From the NCBI RefSeq assembly GCF_988243305.1, contig NZ_OZ547136.1: DNA of 64,000 nt; one strand, 5' to 3'. Under the pieces are notes generated by a model. The model had not been told where the DNA came from and searched no databases. It worked only from the letters and a program-made list of their open reading frames with translations. Positions 58,567-62,239 of the stretch are shown here, piece after piece. The position numbers and the translations under genes are program-made. Each line of letters opens with the position of its first letter. Position 1 is the first letter of the stretch.

Positions 58567-59376
58567 ATGATTCATTACAGGGAGAATATATATTCTCTTG
58601 ATAATTATGAGCGTTATATAACTGACAGTTCGCTATTTGAGAATACTGGCGATGGCATAATATATACAGGTATTGTGCCCCTTATTACAGTTGTTGAGCC
58701 TGTTGTATCTAATCAACATAGTGTGCTGATTATACCTGGAGGTGGATACAGGAGGATTGTTTATGAAAGAGAGGGACTTGATGTTGGCAGATGGATAGCA
58801 GGTCAGGGATATACGGCATTTATTCTTTCTTACAGAATGCCCTCCGTTAATGGTTATTATTCCTTTGCAGATGCGAAGAATGCCCTGAACTTTATTTCTT
58901 ACTGGGCCGGAATGTCGGAGAGAACATTTAAGAGTGTTGGATGTATGGGGTTTTCGGCAGGTGGTCATCTTGCTGGATATATTACTCATCTCCATTATGA
59001 GGAAGAGACTTCTGTGCGTCCTGACTGGATGGCTCTGATATATCCAGTTATATCTCTTGACAGGAGTATTGCTCATCAGGGATGCCGGAAACGTCTTCTG
59101 GATGCAGGTGAAAGTGAATATTCAGCCAGTCTTGAAAATAGTGTTACAGAGTATATGCCACCAGTCTTTATTGTGCATGCAACAGATGATAAGGATGTTC
59201 CAGTTATTCATTCTCTGAGATATTTTAACTCTATTCGGGATAAGGGACATCATGCAGAAGCTCATTTTTTTGATAAGGGAGGTCATGGATTTGGTGTATC
59301 CGGAAAAAATGGATATCCGATAGAAAAATGGCAAAGCCTGCTTCTGGAATGGCTTGCGGAACATAAGTTTTATTGA
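58567..59376 (+). CDS. Alpha/beta-hydrolase esterase (copy 1)
   Basis: RBS AGGGA upstream of ATG 58567; IIPGGGY and nucleophile GFSAGGH motifs. Confidence 0.75.
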   Translation: MIHYRENIYSLDNYERYITDSSLFENTGDGIIYTGIVPLITVVEPVVSNQHSVLIIPGGGYRRIVYEREGLDVGRWIAGQGYTAFILSYRMPSVNGYYSFADAKNALNFISYWAGMSERTFKSVGCMGFSAGGHLAGYITHLHYEEETSVRPDWMALIYPVISLDRSIAHQGCRKRLLDAGESEYSASLENSVTEYMPPVFIVHATDDKDVPVIHSLRYFNSIRDKGHHAEAHFFDKGGHGFGVSGKNGYPIEKWQSLLLEWLAEHKFY

Positions 59377-59421
59377 GAAATCAAATTACAAGTGATAAAT
59401 ATATTTAATGATGAGGCATTT

Positions 59422-60132
59422 ATGAAAAAATATTATCCACTATTAACTGTAATTCTTCTTGGTTTACCTTTGTGCTCTCAGGCATTAACTCTTAATCTAC
59501 GTGGGGGATACAGAAGCGCCAGTCACGCTTATGAAACGTTGATTCAGGTTAGTCAGGGGTGGAATAATGGTTGGTGGGCAAGTTTTGAGTCAAACACCTG
59601 GAATACAATTCACAACAATGAAAATGAATTGTTTGCACTCAATTATAATAAAATAGATATAAATAAAACATATAAAATAGATGACAAATGGGCTCTAATC
59701 CCAGGGATTCAGACACAATGGATGTCAGCAGGAAGTCAGTATAACCCTTATCTGAAAATTTCGTATCAGGCAACGCCAGATCTTAATCTGGCCTTACGCT
59801 ATCGCTATGACTGGAAAGCTTTCCGACAGACGGATTTAGATGGCAACAGGGCGCGTAATGATCAGCATCAGTTTGATGGTTATGTGACATACAAAATTAA
59901 TGATTCATGGTTGTTTGCATGGCAGACCACGGTATATACGAAGGTTAATAATTTCAAATATGGGAATCATAAAAAAACAGCAACTGAAAATGCATTTGTT
60001 CTGCAATATAAAATGTCACCGGTGTTCACCCCATATATAGAATATGATTACTTGGATAAACAAGGGGTGTATAAGGGGAAAGATAATAAACATGAAAATA
60101 GTTACCGTGTCGGTGTTCTGATTAATTTTTAA
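59422..60132 (+). CDS. KdgM/NanC-family outer-membrane channel
   Basis: ATG 59422 (MKKYYPLLTVILLGLPLCSQA...); signal peptide; C-terminal beta-strand ending in F. Confidence 0.8.
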   Translation: MKKYYPLLTVILLGLPLCSQALTLNLRGGYRSASHAYETLIQVSQGWNNGWWASFESNTWNTIHNNENELFALNYNKIDINKTYKIDDKWALIPGIQTQWMSAGSQYNPYLKISYQATPDLNLALRYRYDWKAFRQTDLDGNRARNDQHQFDGYVTYKINDSWLFAWQTTVYTKVNNFKYGNHKKTATENAFVLQYKMSPVFTPYIEYDYLDKQGVYKGKDNKHENSYRVGVLINF

Positions 60133-60144
60133 AAGGTGATTACA

Positions 60145-61254
60145 ATGAAAGTGAAAAACTTTATATATCTTCCCTTCTGCTTGTTTATTGGAACGTCGGT
60201 AGCCGGAGCTTTACCGGAAATTCCTGAACCATTTAAATATGGTGTAGGAGGGATCGAGAATGGTAAAATATATATAGGACTGGGAAGTCTGGGAAATAAC
60301 TGGTATATGATAGATACAAACCAGAGTGAAAAAAAATGGACTAAGATAGCGCAATGGCCGACAGTTCCCAGAGAGCAGGCAACAGCTACTATTATTGATG
60401 GTAAGATCTATGTATTTGGAGGAATTGGAAAAGATAAAAGTGGAGTCATAACCTTACAAAAAGATGTCTATTCCTATGATATTGCTAAAGATAAATGGGA
60501 AAAATTGATGACCCGTCCCCCTGTATCTCTTGCCGGTCATGTTTCTTTTATCCATAATGGTCATGCGGTATCTACTGGTGGTGTAAATGAGAATATTTTT
60601 AATGGATACTTTTCAGATGTCGAGTTATCAAAAGGGAATTCCGCGCTGACAGAGAAAGTCAACAGGGATTATTTTAGTAAACCTGCTGATGATTATTTTT
60701 TAAATAATCATATAATTTCTTATGACCCGTCAAAAAACCAGTGGAAGAACCTGGGAACGACTCCATTTCCGGGAACTGCTGGTTCATCGGTGATTTTTGC
60801 AGAACAGCAAATTTATATACTGGGAGGGGAGAGAAAACCGGGGCTTCGTTCTGTTAGATCCTGGACGGGGGAGCTTTCGCATGATCGAATTAAATGGTTT
60901 GAACTTCCACCAGTAGCTTCACCCGAGGGGGTGTCAGGAGCATATGCCTCTGTTATTGATGGAAATATCTTTCTGGCCGGTGGTGCATATTTCCCGGGGG
61001 CGGCAGAAAAGTATAGCAATGGTGAATACTGGTCTCATAAAGGACTGGATAAAGCCTATTCAAAAGAGATATATCAGCTAATAAAAAATGACTGGAAAAA
61101 AGTTGGTTCTTTGCCGGAAGGACTTGCTTATGGTGTAAGCCTGCCCTGGCAGGGGGGGATGCTCATTCTGGGGGGGGAGAAAAAAGATGGTAAAGCTGTT
61201 TCAGATGTTATTTATCTGAAAAAAAATGACAAACAAATAAAGATTGTTAAATAA
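60145..61254 (+). CDS. Kelch-repeat sialic acid mutarotase (NanM/YjhT-like)
   Basis: ATG 60145 after RBS AAAAGG; signal peptide; repeated Kelch-type GG motifs. Confidence 0.8.
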   Translation: MKVKNFIYLPFCLFIGTSVAGALPEIPEPFKYGVGGIENGKIYIGLGSLGNNWYMIDTNQSEKKWTKIAQWPTVPREQATATIIDGKIYVFGGIGKDKSGVITLQKDVYSYDIAKDKWEKLMTRPPVSLAGHVSFIHNGHAVSTGGVNENIFNGYFSDVELSKGNSALTEKVNRDYFSKPADDYFLNNHIISYDPSKNQWKNLGTTPFPGTAGSSVIFAEQQIYILGGERKPGLRSVRSWTGELSHDRIKWFELPPVASPEGVSGAYASVIDGNIFLAGGAYFPGAAEKYSNGEYWSHKGLDKAYSKEIYQLIKNDWKKVGSLPEGLAYGVSLPWQGGMLILGGEKKDGKAVSDVIYLKKNDKQIKIVK

Positions 61255-61303
61255 CTGTAATGCAGGTGACTGTATTAGTTGTTCAGTCACCTGAGTTATT
61301 TTA

Positions 61304-62239
61304 ATGGGGTTTATAATGAATAAAGATAGATCTTTAAATGAAATGATGTTAAGCTTGTTTAATAAATCAACTATTGTTGACTTGTCAAGTGAGACAATAT
61401 CTGAGAGTAAATCTCTTTCAGGCCGTATTTATCAGGATCCTGAACATAACGGGGAATTTGAACTTGATCGTGTATTGACAGATATTTATGCTCCTCAGTT
61501 AATTATTTTTTTACCAGATAAACCAAATGGAACAGGAATATTGATTATTCCCGGGGGGGGCTACCAGGCTGTTATGTTAGATAAGGAAGGTACAGCTCTT
61601 GCTCCAGAGTTTTTATCTCAGGGCTATACATTATTTGTTCTTAGTTACAGATTACCATCGCCAGTTGAGGGAGAAAATATAAACAAAACTTTTATTGATG
61701 CAATATCTGCAATGCTTTATATTCGTAAGAATGCTGATAAATGGCATCTACAGCGTCATCGTATTGGTGTATTAGGATTTTCTGCTGGGGGGCATATCGC
61801 CTCAACGTTTGTGAATCAGATTTGTGATTTCAAACGTTCTTCTGACAGTAAAGAACAAGAGATTTTCGCTATTCCCGATTTTGTCGGGTTAATTTATCCT
61901 GTAATATCAATGAAAGATGATGTGACACATCCAGGCTCCAGGAAGCAATTACTGGGGGACAATAGTACCTCAGAAAATATAATACAATATAGTGCGGATC
62001 TTAATGTCACATCATGTTTTCCTCCTGTGTTTTTACTCCATTGTTGTGATGATGATCTTGTGTCAATTGAAAACAGTCTGCTCATGTACCGTGGCCTAAT
62101 AGAGAAAGGTGTTTCTGCTGAAATGCATCTCTATGAGAAAGGAGGGCATGGTTTTAGTATTCAGTGGGCCACAGATCTTCCTGTTGGAGGATGGATAAAA
62201 CTGTTTATGGACTGGATGTATTCTCATGGATTTAAATAA
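61304..62239 (+). CDS. Alpha/beta-hydrolase esterase (copy 2, paralogue of 58567..59376)
   Basis: LIIPGGGY and GFSAGGH motifs shared with copy 1; alternative start 61316. Confidence 0.7.
   Translation: MGFIMNKDRSLNEMMLSLFNKSTIVDLSSETISESKSLSGRIYQDPEHNGEFELDRVLTDIYAPQLIIFLPDKPNGTGILIIPGGGYQAVMLDKEGTALAPEFLSQGYTLFVLSYRLPSPVEGENINKTFIDAISAMLYIRKNADKWHLQRHRIGVLGFSAGGHIASTFVNQICDFKRSSDSKEQEIFAIPDFVGLIYPVISMKDDVTHPGSRKQLLGDNSTSENIIQYSADLNVTSCFPPVFLLHCCDDDLVSIENSLLMYRGLIEKGVSAEMHLYEKGGHGFSIQWATDLPVGGWIKLFMDWMYSHGFK

What the first reader, a model, noticed from the sequence alone, without database searches (positions are those of the whole stretch)
58567..62239. Two paralogous esterases flanking the porin and mutarotase genes
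ORFs 58567..59376 and 61304..62239 share the motifs IIPGGGY and GFSAGGH and similar length, indicating an internal duplication within the locus. Retaining both suggests distinct substrate or positional specificity.
Basis: seen in the sequence. Interest (0 to 1): 0.35.

Follow-up and report, generated by a model that had tools for sequence, protein, structure and literature searches.

The report
Paired esterases of the nan-9 cluster
The two esterase genes are real, intact and only distantly related members of one carbohydrate-esterase family inside the published E. coli "nan-9" sialic-acid island; they are an old, conserved pair rather than a recent duplication, and what they de-esterify is still untested.

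Summary
Two alpha/beta-hydrolase genes, Est1 (58546/58567-59376) and Est2 (61304-62239), flank a KdgM/NanC-type porin gene and a NanM epimerase gene. They share IIPGGGY and GFSAGGH and are homologous (37% identity, E 8e-52).

The locus is the published nan-9 cluster, also called the nan module of GI-pheV (PMC10088187, PMC11537424). It is present at >=99% identity in 688 of 5426 complete E. coli genomes. That paper already noted two "axeA1-like" genes as putative novel sialyl esterases.

"Internal duplication" is not supported as a recent event:
- The genes share no DNA similarity.
- Each protein has closer relatives elsewhere than its neighbour.
- Four diverged versions of the module all carry one Est1-type, one Est2-type and one NanS-like SGNH esterase. 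These are E. coli GI-pheV, the Proteus chromosome, E. coli IncF plasmids and a Citrobacter-like contig.
- Est1 and Est2 each form clades with 99-100% bootstrap support. They are exclusive sisters in only 22% of replicates.

Both keep the Ser-Asp-His triad, evolve with pN below pS, lack signal peptides, and model confidently as BD-FAE-type carbohydrate acetylesterases.

Most likely they are cytoplasmic O-deacylases for modified sialic acids with different specificities. This is inferred, not shown. The finding is ordinary and already described.

The parts
55195..56112 (+). nanA-like N-acetylneuraminate lyase, first gene of the nan-9 cluster
   Evidence: PF00701 E 2e-93; NCBIfam NF003164, 446 bits against a cut-off of 281; RefSeq annotation
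56146..57021 (+). nanK-like N-acetylmannosamine kinase (ROK family)
   Evidence: PF00480 E 1e-72; NF003461, 420 bits against a cut-off of 283
57070..58536 (+). nanT-like sialate:H+ symporter (MFS). Its stop lies 9 nt before the Est1 start.
   Evidence: NF003024, 827 bits against a cut-off of 604; about 90% identical across the four module versions
58546..59376 (+). Est1, a BD-FAE-family alpha/beta-hydrolase serine esterase of 276 aa (alternative start 58567). Predicted triad S137 (58954-58956), D215 (59188-59190), H247 (59284-59286). Oxyanion loop PGGGY at aa 64-68.
   Evidence: PF20434, 43.8 bits against 26.8; invariant columns; AF2 model pLDDT 88.9 and Foldseek top hits 7dwc and 6a6o; no N-terminal hydrophobic segment
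59422..60132 (+). NanC-like outer-membrane porin (KdgM family) with a signal peptide
   Evidence: PF06178 E 3.7e-30; hydrophobic N-terminus ending ...CSQA
60145..61254 (+). NanM N-acetylneuraminate epimerase (Kelch propeller) with a signal peptide
   Evidence: PF24996 E 3e-109; NF010730, 498 bits against 416; hydrophobic N-terminus
61257..61299 (+). Intergenic stem-loop between nanM and Est2 (perfect 10-bp core), followed by GUUAUUUUA
   Evidence: RNA fold -20 kcal/mol, z = -3.4, 0 of 200 shuffles as stable
61304..62239 (+). Est2, a BD-FAE-family alpha/beta-hydrolase serine esterase of 311 aa (alternative start 61316). Predicted triad S160 (61781-61783), D250 (62051-62053), H282 (62147-62149). 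N-terminal helix at aa 7-21.
   Evidence: PF20434, 72.2 bits against 26.8; invariant columns; AF2 model pLDDT 92.0 and Foldseek top hits 6a6o and 7dwc
62275..63009 (-). NanR-like GntR/FCD regulator, convergent with Est2 and divergent from the nanS-like gene
   Evidence: NF003011, 273 bits against 260; RefSeq 'nanR'
63109..64000 (+). NanS-like SGNH/SASA sialate O-acetylesterase, the third esterase of the cluster. The window cuts it off; it is 328 aa in full.
   Evidence: RefSeq 'sialate O-acetylesterase' WP_000274668; PF03629 in the orthologous loci; N-terminus read

Best explanation
Est1 and Est2 are two anciently diverged, catalytically intact serine esterases of the BD-FAE branch of the alpha/beta-hydrolase fold, the branch that holds carbohydrate acetylesterases. 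They are fixed components of the mobile nan-9 sialic-acid utilisation module.

Proposed mechanism:
1. Modified sialic acids released from host mucins cross the outer membrane through the NanC-like porin.
2. NanM anomerises them in the periplasm.
3. The NanT-like symporter imports them.
4. In the cytoplasm, Est1, Est2 and the SGNH NanS-like enzyme each remove a different O-acyl substituent. Candidates are acetyl at C7, C8, C9 or C4, or other esters.
5. The NanA-like lyase and NanK-like kinase, together with the core-genome NanE, then complete catabolism.

Shown here: homology; family membership; intact triads; conserved co-occurrence of the pair in diverged modules; absence of an export signal; nonsynonymous below synonymous differences (pN < pS).

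Inferred: the substrate (sialate esters), the compartment, and that the two enzymes differ in specificity.
For: Family and fold:
- Pfam BD-FAE hits lie above the cut-off for both proteins.
- The best PDB relatives are carbohydrate acetylesterases, 6a6o and 7dwc/BTAxe1, by sequence and by fold. The models are confident (pLDDT 88.9 and 92.0).

Activity:
- Ser, Asp, His and the GG oxyanion residues are invariant across 70 homologues, including all module orthologues.

Link to sialic acid:
- The genes sit inside a tightly spaced run of nanA, nanK, nanT, porin and nanM genes.
- The same trio of Est1-type, Est2-type and SASA esterase travels with nan genes in Proteus, on IncF plasmids and on a Citrobacter-like contig, even where gene order is permuted.
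- An exhaustive search finds only one other 50%-identity cluster (representative P0004, from the other nan-module versions) clearly closer to Est1 than the general family; all Est1-type contexts examined are nan modules.

Selection and orthology:
- pN is below pS in all orthologue comparisons.
- Est1 orthologues are 46-64% identical and Est2 orthologues 53-67%, against 35-46% across types.
- The Est1 clade has 200/200 and the Est2 clade 198/200 bootstrap support.

Compartment:
- No hydrophobic N-terminal segment occurs in Est1 or Est2 in any of the four versions. The porin and NanM have clear ones.

Distinct roles:
- Clade-specific residues sit next to catalytic motifs: PGGGY-RR against PGGGY-QA, HxGC against HxGS, and GHGFGxS against GHGFxxQW. 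Est2 also has an N-terminal helix.

Literature:
- Deleting nan-9 delays growth on Neu5Ac and Neu5Gc, and the authors propose that the two genes are novel sialyl esterases (PMC10088187).
Against: - No enzymatic or genetic data exist for either gene alone. The published deletion removed all nine genes and was tested only on non-O-acetylated sialic acids.
- No BD-FAE-family enzyme is reported to act on sialic acid in the searched literature.
- Scores to the characterised equivalogs PaeX and AxeA1 are far below their cut-offs, so substrate cannot be transferred by homology.
- Vimr's model places sialate-modifying enzymes such as NanS in the periplasm. The cytoplasmic assignment here rests only on the absence of a recognisable signal peptide.
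- The two esterases are the fastest-evolving genes of the module, which could reflect weak constraint rather than adaptive specificity.
Confidence: 0.55

Rival explanations
1. One reading: the two genes arose by a duplication inside this locus, and the copies then sub-functionalised.
For: - They belong to the same family and lie 2 kb apart on the same strand.
- Est1 sits on a long branch, and Est2-type proteins are among its nearest outsiders by distance.
- Est1 and Est2 form an exclusive pair in 45 of 200 NJ bootstraps. An ancient duplication in the ancestral module followed by fast evolution of Est1 is therefore possible.
Against: - They are only 37% identical, with no DNA similarity.
- More than 100 proteins from unrelated taxa score higher against Est1 than Est2-type proteins do.
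- Est2 groups first with stand-alone Cronobacter/Kluyvera esterases that lie in a non-nan context.
- Both types were already distinct in the common ancestor of four module versions that differ by about 50% in these proteins.
Confidence: 0.25
2. The esterases act after the lyase or on other esters. Candidate substrates are O-acetyl-ManNAc produced when NanA cleaves O-acetylated sialic acids, 9-O-lactyl groups, sialic-acid lactones or methyl esters, rather than O-acetyl groups on intact sialic acid.
For: - They appear cytoplasmic and are co-transcribed with nanA and nanK.
- A dedicated SGNH sialate O-acetylesterase is already present in the module.
- Both proteins give weak dienelactone-hydrolase (DLH) Pfam hits.
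- Vimr notes unidentified esterases for methylated, lactylated and other substituted sialates.
Against: - The closest characterised relatives are carbohydrate acetylesterases.
- Nothing in the sequence distinguishes these substrates.
- K-12, which lacks nan-9, already grows on the methyl ester.
Confidence: 0.2
3. The esterases work like PaeX. They would be exported by a non-classical route and deacetylate sialo-oligosaccharides or free sialates in the periplasm after entry through the KdgM-type porin.
For: - The best NCBIfam match for both is PaeX.
- PaeX acts on oligomeric substrates (PMC3659327).
- From my own recollection, not checked here, paeX lies next to kdgM in Dickeya.
- Vimr's model places sialate modifiers in the periplasm.
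Against: - No Sec, Tat or lipoprotein signal occurs in any of the eight orthologues.
- The Est2 N-terminus models as a packed amphipathic helix with pLDDT about 95.
- PaeX scores are far below the equivalog cut-off.
Confidence: 0.1
4. The esterases are functionally redundant or generic acetyl-esterases that hitch-hike in the island with no specific role in sialic-acid use.
For: - They are the fastest-evolving genes in the module.
- The nan-9 deletion phenotype on Neu5Ac and Neu5Gc is mild.
Against: - Both are retained with intact triads in every version of the module, across rearrangements and a move from chromosome to plasmid.
- pN is below pS in all orthologue comparisons.
- Both are annotated as intact genes (two alpha/beta hydrolases) in all 39 full-length loci sampled across the 688 E. 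coli genomes that carry the region.
Confidence: 0.1

Closest known systems
nan-9 cluster of ExPEC E. coli (Tiwari et al. 2023, PMC10088187), also called the nan module of GI-pheV (PMC11537424)
   Same: This is the same locus. It has nine genes in the order nanA, nanK, nanT, esterase, nanC, nanM, esterase, nanR, nanS. It is >=99% identical to CFT073, Nissle 1917, ATCC 25922 and ST131 genomes and lies next to shiF-iucABCD-iutA.
   Different: Nothing differs in the sequence.
BD-FAE / CE-type alpha/beta-hydrolase carbohydrate acetylesterases: BTAxe1 (PDB 7dwc), the Caldicellulosiruptor acetyl ester-xyloside hydrolase (6a6o), PaeX and AxeA1
   Same: They share the fold, the GxSxG nucleophile elbow, the Ser-Asp-His triad, the PGGG oxyanion loop and a similar size.
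   Different: Identity is only 24-40%. Scores fall below the equivalog cut-offs for PaeX and AxeA1. The genomic context is sialic-acid catabolism, not xylan or pectin catabolism.
NanS (YjhS) and prophage NanS-p sialate 9-O-acetylesterases
   Same: The presumed pathway role is the same: removing O-acetyl groups so that sialic acid can be catabolised. In K-12 nanCMS, as here, an esterase gene sits next to nanC and nanM.
   Different: NanS has the SGNH/SASA fold (PF03629), which is unrelated. nan-9 carries its own NanS-like gene in addition to Est1 and Est2.

Membership tests
Pfam BD-FAE (PF20434) alpha/beta-hydrolase esterases | Profile match above the curated gathering score | tested here: met
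   Est1 scores 43.8 bits and Est2 72.2 bits against a cut-off of 26.8.
Pfam BD-FAE (PF20434) alpha/beta-hydrolase esterases | Ser-Asp-His catalytic triad and a GG oxyanion loop in the canonical order | tested here: met
   S137/D215/H247 in Est1 and S160/D250/H282 in Est2, together with the GG of PGGGY, are invariant in 70-sequence alignments.
Pfam BD-FAE (PF20434) alpha/beta-hydrolase esterases | Alpha/beta-hydrolase fold closest to solved family members | tested here: met
   The AF2 models have pLDDT 88.9 and 92.0. The Foldseek top hits are 7dwc and 6a6o, with E 4e-21 to 1e-23 and target-normalised TM 0.76-0.84.
Pfam BD-FAE (PF20434) alpha/beta-hydrolase esterases | Measured esterase activity | not testable with these tools
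   This needs purified protein.
PaeX pectin acetylesterase (NCBIfam NF041902, equivalog) | Score at or above the equivalog cut-off of 550 bits | tested here: not met
   Est1 scores 167.6 bits and Est2 257.5 bits.
AxeA1 acetylxylan esterase (NCBIfam NF042968, equivalog), the label used for these genes in PMC10088187 | Score at or above the equivalog cut-off of 700 bits | tested here: not met
   The scores are 135.8 and 156.8 bits, and only the N-terminal part of the 459-position profile is matched. The paper itself reports 19-20% similarity.
NanS / SASA sialate O-acetylesterases (SGNH, PF03629) | SASA/SGNH domain | tested here: not met
   Neither Est1 nor Est2 has a PF03629 hit. The SASA protein of the module is the separate gene starting at 63109.
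nan-9 cluster | Nine contiguous genes nanA-K-T-est-C-M-est-R-S in that order and orientation | tested here: met
   Domain and family assignments agree and so does the RefSeq annotation of a 99.9%-identical CFT073 locus. The region is present in 688 of 5426 complete genomes, consistent with the 12% reported in the paper.
Recent in-locus paralogues (tandem-type duplication) | The two copies are each other's closest relatives, with residual DNA similarity | tested here: not met
   Identity is 37% against 46-58% to orthologues elsewhere. megablast finds no hit. The exclusive sister grouping appears in 45 of 200 bootstraps.

The most novel reading that the evidence does not exclude
Est1 and Est2 would be the first alpha/beta-hydrolase (BD-FAE) sialate O-acyl esterases. 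Their positional specificities, for example 7/8-O- or 4-O-acetyl or 9-O-lactyl, would complement the SGNH NanS-type 9-O-acetylesterase. Together the three enzymes would give nan-9 carriers full access to the oligo-O-acetylated sialic acids of human colonic mucin. The unusually fast divergence of the two enzymes between the human-associated chromosomal module and the animal-derived plasmid and Proteus versions would track host-specific sialic-acid modification patterns.
Probability: 0.3. Interest if true: 0.55.

Novelty: already known. Interest (0 to 1): 0.3.

Why it matters
[quoted passage not shown] It is concentrated in the pandemic ExPEC lineages ST131, ST73 and ST69 and is also present in the probiotic Nissle 1917. 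If the two esterases open access to heavily O-acetylated gut sialic acids, they would help explain why these lineages colonise humans so well. They would also add a second protein fold to the known sialate esterases. As it stands, the genes are annotated and published, and only their biochemistry is open.

Tried and rejected
- Operator search. I looked for K-12-type NanR operators (GGTATA repeats) upstream of nanA (54534-55194) and in the nanR/nanS intergenic region. There were none, and GGTATA is not enriched in the window (22 matches against 15.9 expected). Regulation by the NanR-like protein therefore remains unaddressed.
- Promoter and terminator scans of 54500-64000 were no better than shuffles (33 against 28.9 and 10 against 6.3) and were not used.
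- Literature. Searches by RefSeq accession and guessed CFT073 locus tags returned only irrelevant papers. Searches for PDB codes 7DWC and 6A6O, and for BD-FAE together with sialic acid, gave nothing useful. The NanS paper (PMC2772488) and the PaeX paper (PMC154074) are not held, so statements about PaeX localisation and kdgM-paeX adjacency are recollection only.
- Phylogeny. A first bootstrap run with Biopython NJ timed out. It was replaced by a numpy NJ. No maximum-likelihood software was available, so the sister-group question is answered only with distance bootstraps.
- dN/dS ratios are upper-bound-like because dS is saturated. Only the observation pN < pS is used.
- Upstream annotation. 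I fetched it from the 100%-matching record. I could not confirm that it is collinear with window 1-50000, so it was not used.
- Not run: a genome contigs or metagenome scan, because the 5.8-billion-protein and 1.8-billion-representative searches already showed the Est1 lineage to be tiny.
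Full report
**What is there.**
The + strand from 55195 to the end of the window carries a compact run of genes. 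Pfam and NCBIfam identify them as follows:
- an N-acetylneuraminate lyase (55195-56112);
- a ROK N-acetylmannosamine kinase (56146-57021);
- a sialate:H+ MFS symporter (57070-58536);
- an alpha/beta hydrolase, here called Est1 (58546-59376);
- a KdgM/NanC-family porin (59422-60132);
- the NanM epimerase (60145-61254);
- a second alpha/beta hydrolase, Est2 (61304-62239);
- a convergent NanR-like GntR/FCD regulator (62275-63009, minus strand);
- the 5' part of an SGNH/SASA "sialate O-acetylesterase" (from 63109, cut by the window end).

G+C is 37-43% against about 50-56% for the rest of the window. IS66-family elements lie immediately upstream. This is typical of horizontally acquired DNA.

**The observation.**
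Est1 and Est2 are clearly homologous, with 37% identity over 249 residues and E = 8e-52. IIPGGGY and GFSAGGH are present in both at the expected places. The two genes do flank the porin and mutarotase genes. Est2 likewise has a plausible alternative start at 61316. These differences do not matter for the finding.

**It is a published locus.**
The 8.1-kb region is 99.9-100% identical to chromosomes of CFT073, Nissle 1917, ATCC 25922, ST131 strains and others. It occurs once per genome in 688 of 5426 complete E. coli genomes. In CFT073 it lies between IS66 copies and shiF-iucABCD-iutA.

Tiwari et al. (BMC Biol 2023, PMC10088187) named exactly these nine genes "nan-9". Their findings were:
- Its prevalence is 12% of RefSeq genomes and 68-85% of ST73 and ST131.
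- Deleting all nine genes delays growth on Neu5Ac and Neu5Gc.
- nan-9 cannot replace nanRATEK, probably because it has no nanE.

The pheV-island study calls the same region the conserved "nan module" (PMC11537424). I found no later paper on the enzymes themselves.

**Duplication inside the locus?**
The evidence is against a recent event.
- At the DNA level there is no megablast hit. Only a 42-nt, 76% stretch over a conserved motif aligns.
- Against 5.8 billion proteins, Est1's best non-self relatives are 46-47% identical (P0004, P0006 from Proteus, P0007 from Citrobacter farmeri/E. coli). More than 100 proteins from Bacteroidota and other taxa then outscore any Est2-type protein.
- Est2's best relatives are 58% (P0123) and 53% (P0124, P0125) identical. 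Stand-alone Cronobacter/Kluyvera esterases follow at 46-48%, and these lie in a non-nan context.
- An exhaustive HMMER search of 1.8 billion representatives shows the Est1 lineage to be tiny. One other 50% cluster (P0004) scores 255 bits, followed by a drop to the general family at about 170 bits.

**The contexts of the close relatives are decisive.**
A Proteus chromosome (L002/L003), a metagenome contig (L009), E. coli IncF plasmids (L004/L005) and a Citrobacter-like contig (L006/L007) all carry a nan module. Each has one Est1-type gene after nanT, one Est2-type gene next to nanR, and one SASA esterase. In the plasmid and Citrobacter-like versions the gene order is circularly permuted.

Within types, identities are 46-64% for Est1 and 53-67% for Est2. 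Across types they are 35-46%.

In an NJ tree of 234 family members, the Est1 clade has 200/200 bootstrap support and the Est2 clade 198/200. Est1+Est2 form an exclusive group in only 45/200 replicates. In the point tree Est2 joins the stand-alone enterobacterial esterases first.

The two types were therefore already distinct before the known module versions diverged. Whether they arose by a very old duplication in an ancestral module, with Est1 then evolving fast, or were recruited separately cannot be settled with distance methods. I put the former at about 25%.

**Are both functional?**
Yes, as far as sequence can show.
- The nucleophile Ser, the acid Asp, the His and the GG of the oxyanion loop are invariant in two 70-sequence alignments and in all module orthologues.
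- Nonsynonymous differences are well below synonymous ones in every orthologue pair. dS is saturated, so the ratios of 0.12-0.49 are rough.
- Both genes are annotated as intact in all 39 full-length loci sampled across the ranking of the 688 E. coli genomes that carry the region.
- AlphaFold models are confident (pLDDT 88.9 and 92.0).
- The nearest solved structures are carbohydrate acetylesterases: B. thetaiotaomicron BTAxe1 (7dwc) and the Caldicellulosiruptor acetyl ester-xyloside hydrolase (6a6o).

**Family membership.**
Both proteins pass the Pfam BD-FAE threshold. They fall far below the NCBIfam equivalog cut-offs for PaeX (168 and 258 bits against 550) and AxeA1 (136 and 157 bits against 700). 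They have no SASA/SGNH domain. They are thus BD-FAE-family esterases of unknown substrate. They are not PaeX, not AxeA1 and not NanS.

**Likely mechanism.**
The porin and NanM have obvious signal peptides. Est1, Est2 and the SASA protein have none in any of the four versions. The Est2 N-terminus also models as a packed helix. From this I infer the following route:
1. Modified sialic acids enter through the porin.
2. NanM anomerises them in the periplasm.
3. The highly conserved NanT-like symporter (about 90% identity between versions) imports them.
4. The three esterases de-esterify them in the cytoplasm, ahead of NanA and NanK.

Clade-specific residues sit directly beside catalytic motifs: PGGGY-RR against PGGGY-QA, HxGC against HxGS, H(A/S)xDDxDV against HCCDDxLV, and GHGFGxS against GHGFxxQW. 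Together with the conserved retention of both types, this fits different substrate or positional specificity.

All of this is inference. Three alternatives are not excluded: action on post-lyase O-acetyl-ManNAc or on other esters, a PaeX-like periplasmic role, or plain redundancy. Vimr's model places sialate modifiers in the periplasm, which counts against my compartment assignment.

**Verdict.**
The finding is a real but ordinary feature that has already been described. The pair is ancient and is conserved across chromosomal, plasmid and Proteus versions of the module. It is not a recent in-locus duplication. The two esterases are the fastest-diverging components of an otherwise conserved module.

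Noticed in passing
window 61257-61299: A stable hairpin with a perfect 10-bp core (-20 kcal/mol, z = -3.4) lies in the 49-nt gap between nanM and Est2 and is followed by GUUAUUUUA. It could be a partial terminator or an mRNA-processing or stabilising element that sets Est2 expression apart from the upstream genes.
   Followed up: partly
window 63109-64000 (continues beyond the window; L001 17110-18096): The cluster encodes a third esterase, a NanS-like SGNH/SASA sialate O-acetylesterase, divergent from the NanR-like gene. The module therefore carries three esterases of two unrelated folds, and all four diverged versions keep all three.
   Followed up: partly
window 55195-64000 compared with L002, L004 and L006: Divergence within the module is very uneven. 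nanT is about 90% identical between versions, the porin 78-87%, nanR 71-85% and nanA 69-82%. In contrast nanM is 55-77%, nanK 54-67%, Est2 53-67% and Est1 46-64%.
   Followed up: partly
L004/L005 (E. coli IncF plasmids); plasmid hits H22-H24: A diverged, circularly permuted copy of the whole module sits between traX/finO and the IncFII repA on E. coli plasmids. The three listed plasmid records with this version came from mouse, pig faeces and pork, whereas the chromosomal nan-9 is human-associated in PMC10088187.
   Followed up: no
window 54534-55194 and 63010-63108: Neither promoter region of the cluster contains a GGTATA repeat, which I recall (not checked here) as the K-12 NanR operator motif, even though the cluster encodes a NanR-like repressor. 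The cluster also lacks nanE.
   Followed up: partly
window 51095-54533: Immediately upstream of the cluster there is an intact IS66-family tnpC (51095-52669), apparently inserted into another IS66 copy whose tnpC is truncated (52630-53730) but which keeps its tnpB and tnpA (53761-54533). RefSeq annotates the same arrangement in CFT073.
   Followed up: no
window 58534-58542: In the window the nanT-like ORF stops at 58536. The RefSeq CFT073 gene ends 6 nt later (equivalent to 58542), which implies a strain-level difference at the stop codon.
   Followed up: no
proteins P0239-P0243 and P0248: Several distant family members of 534-869 aa match Est1 in two or three separate stretches. Fused tandem BD-FAE esterases therefore exist elsewhere.
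   Followed up: no
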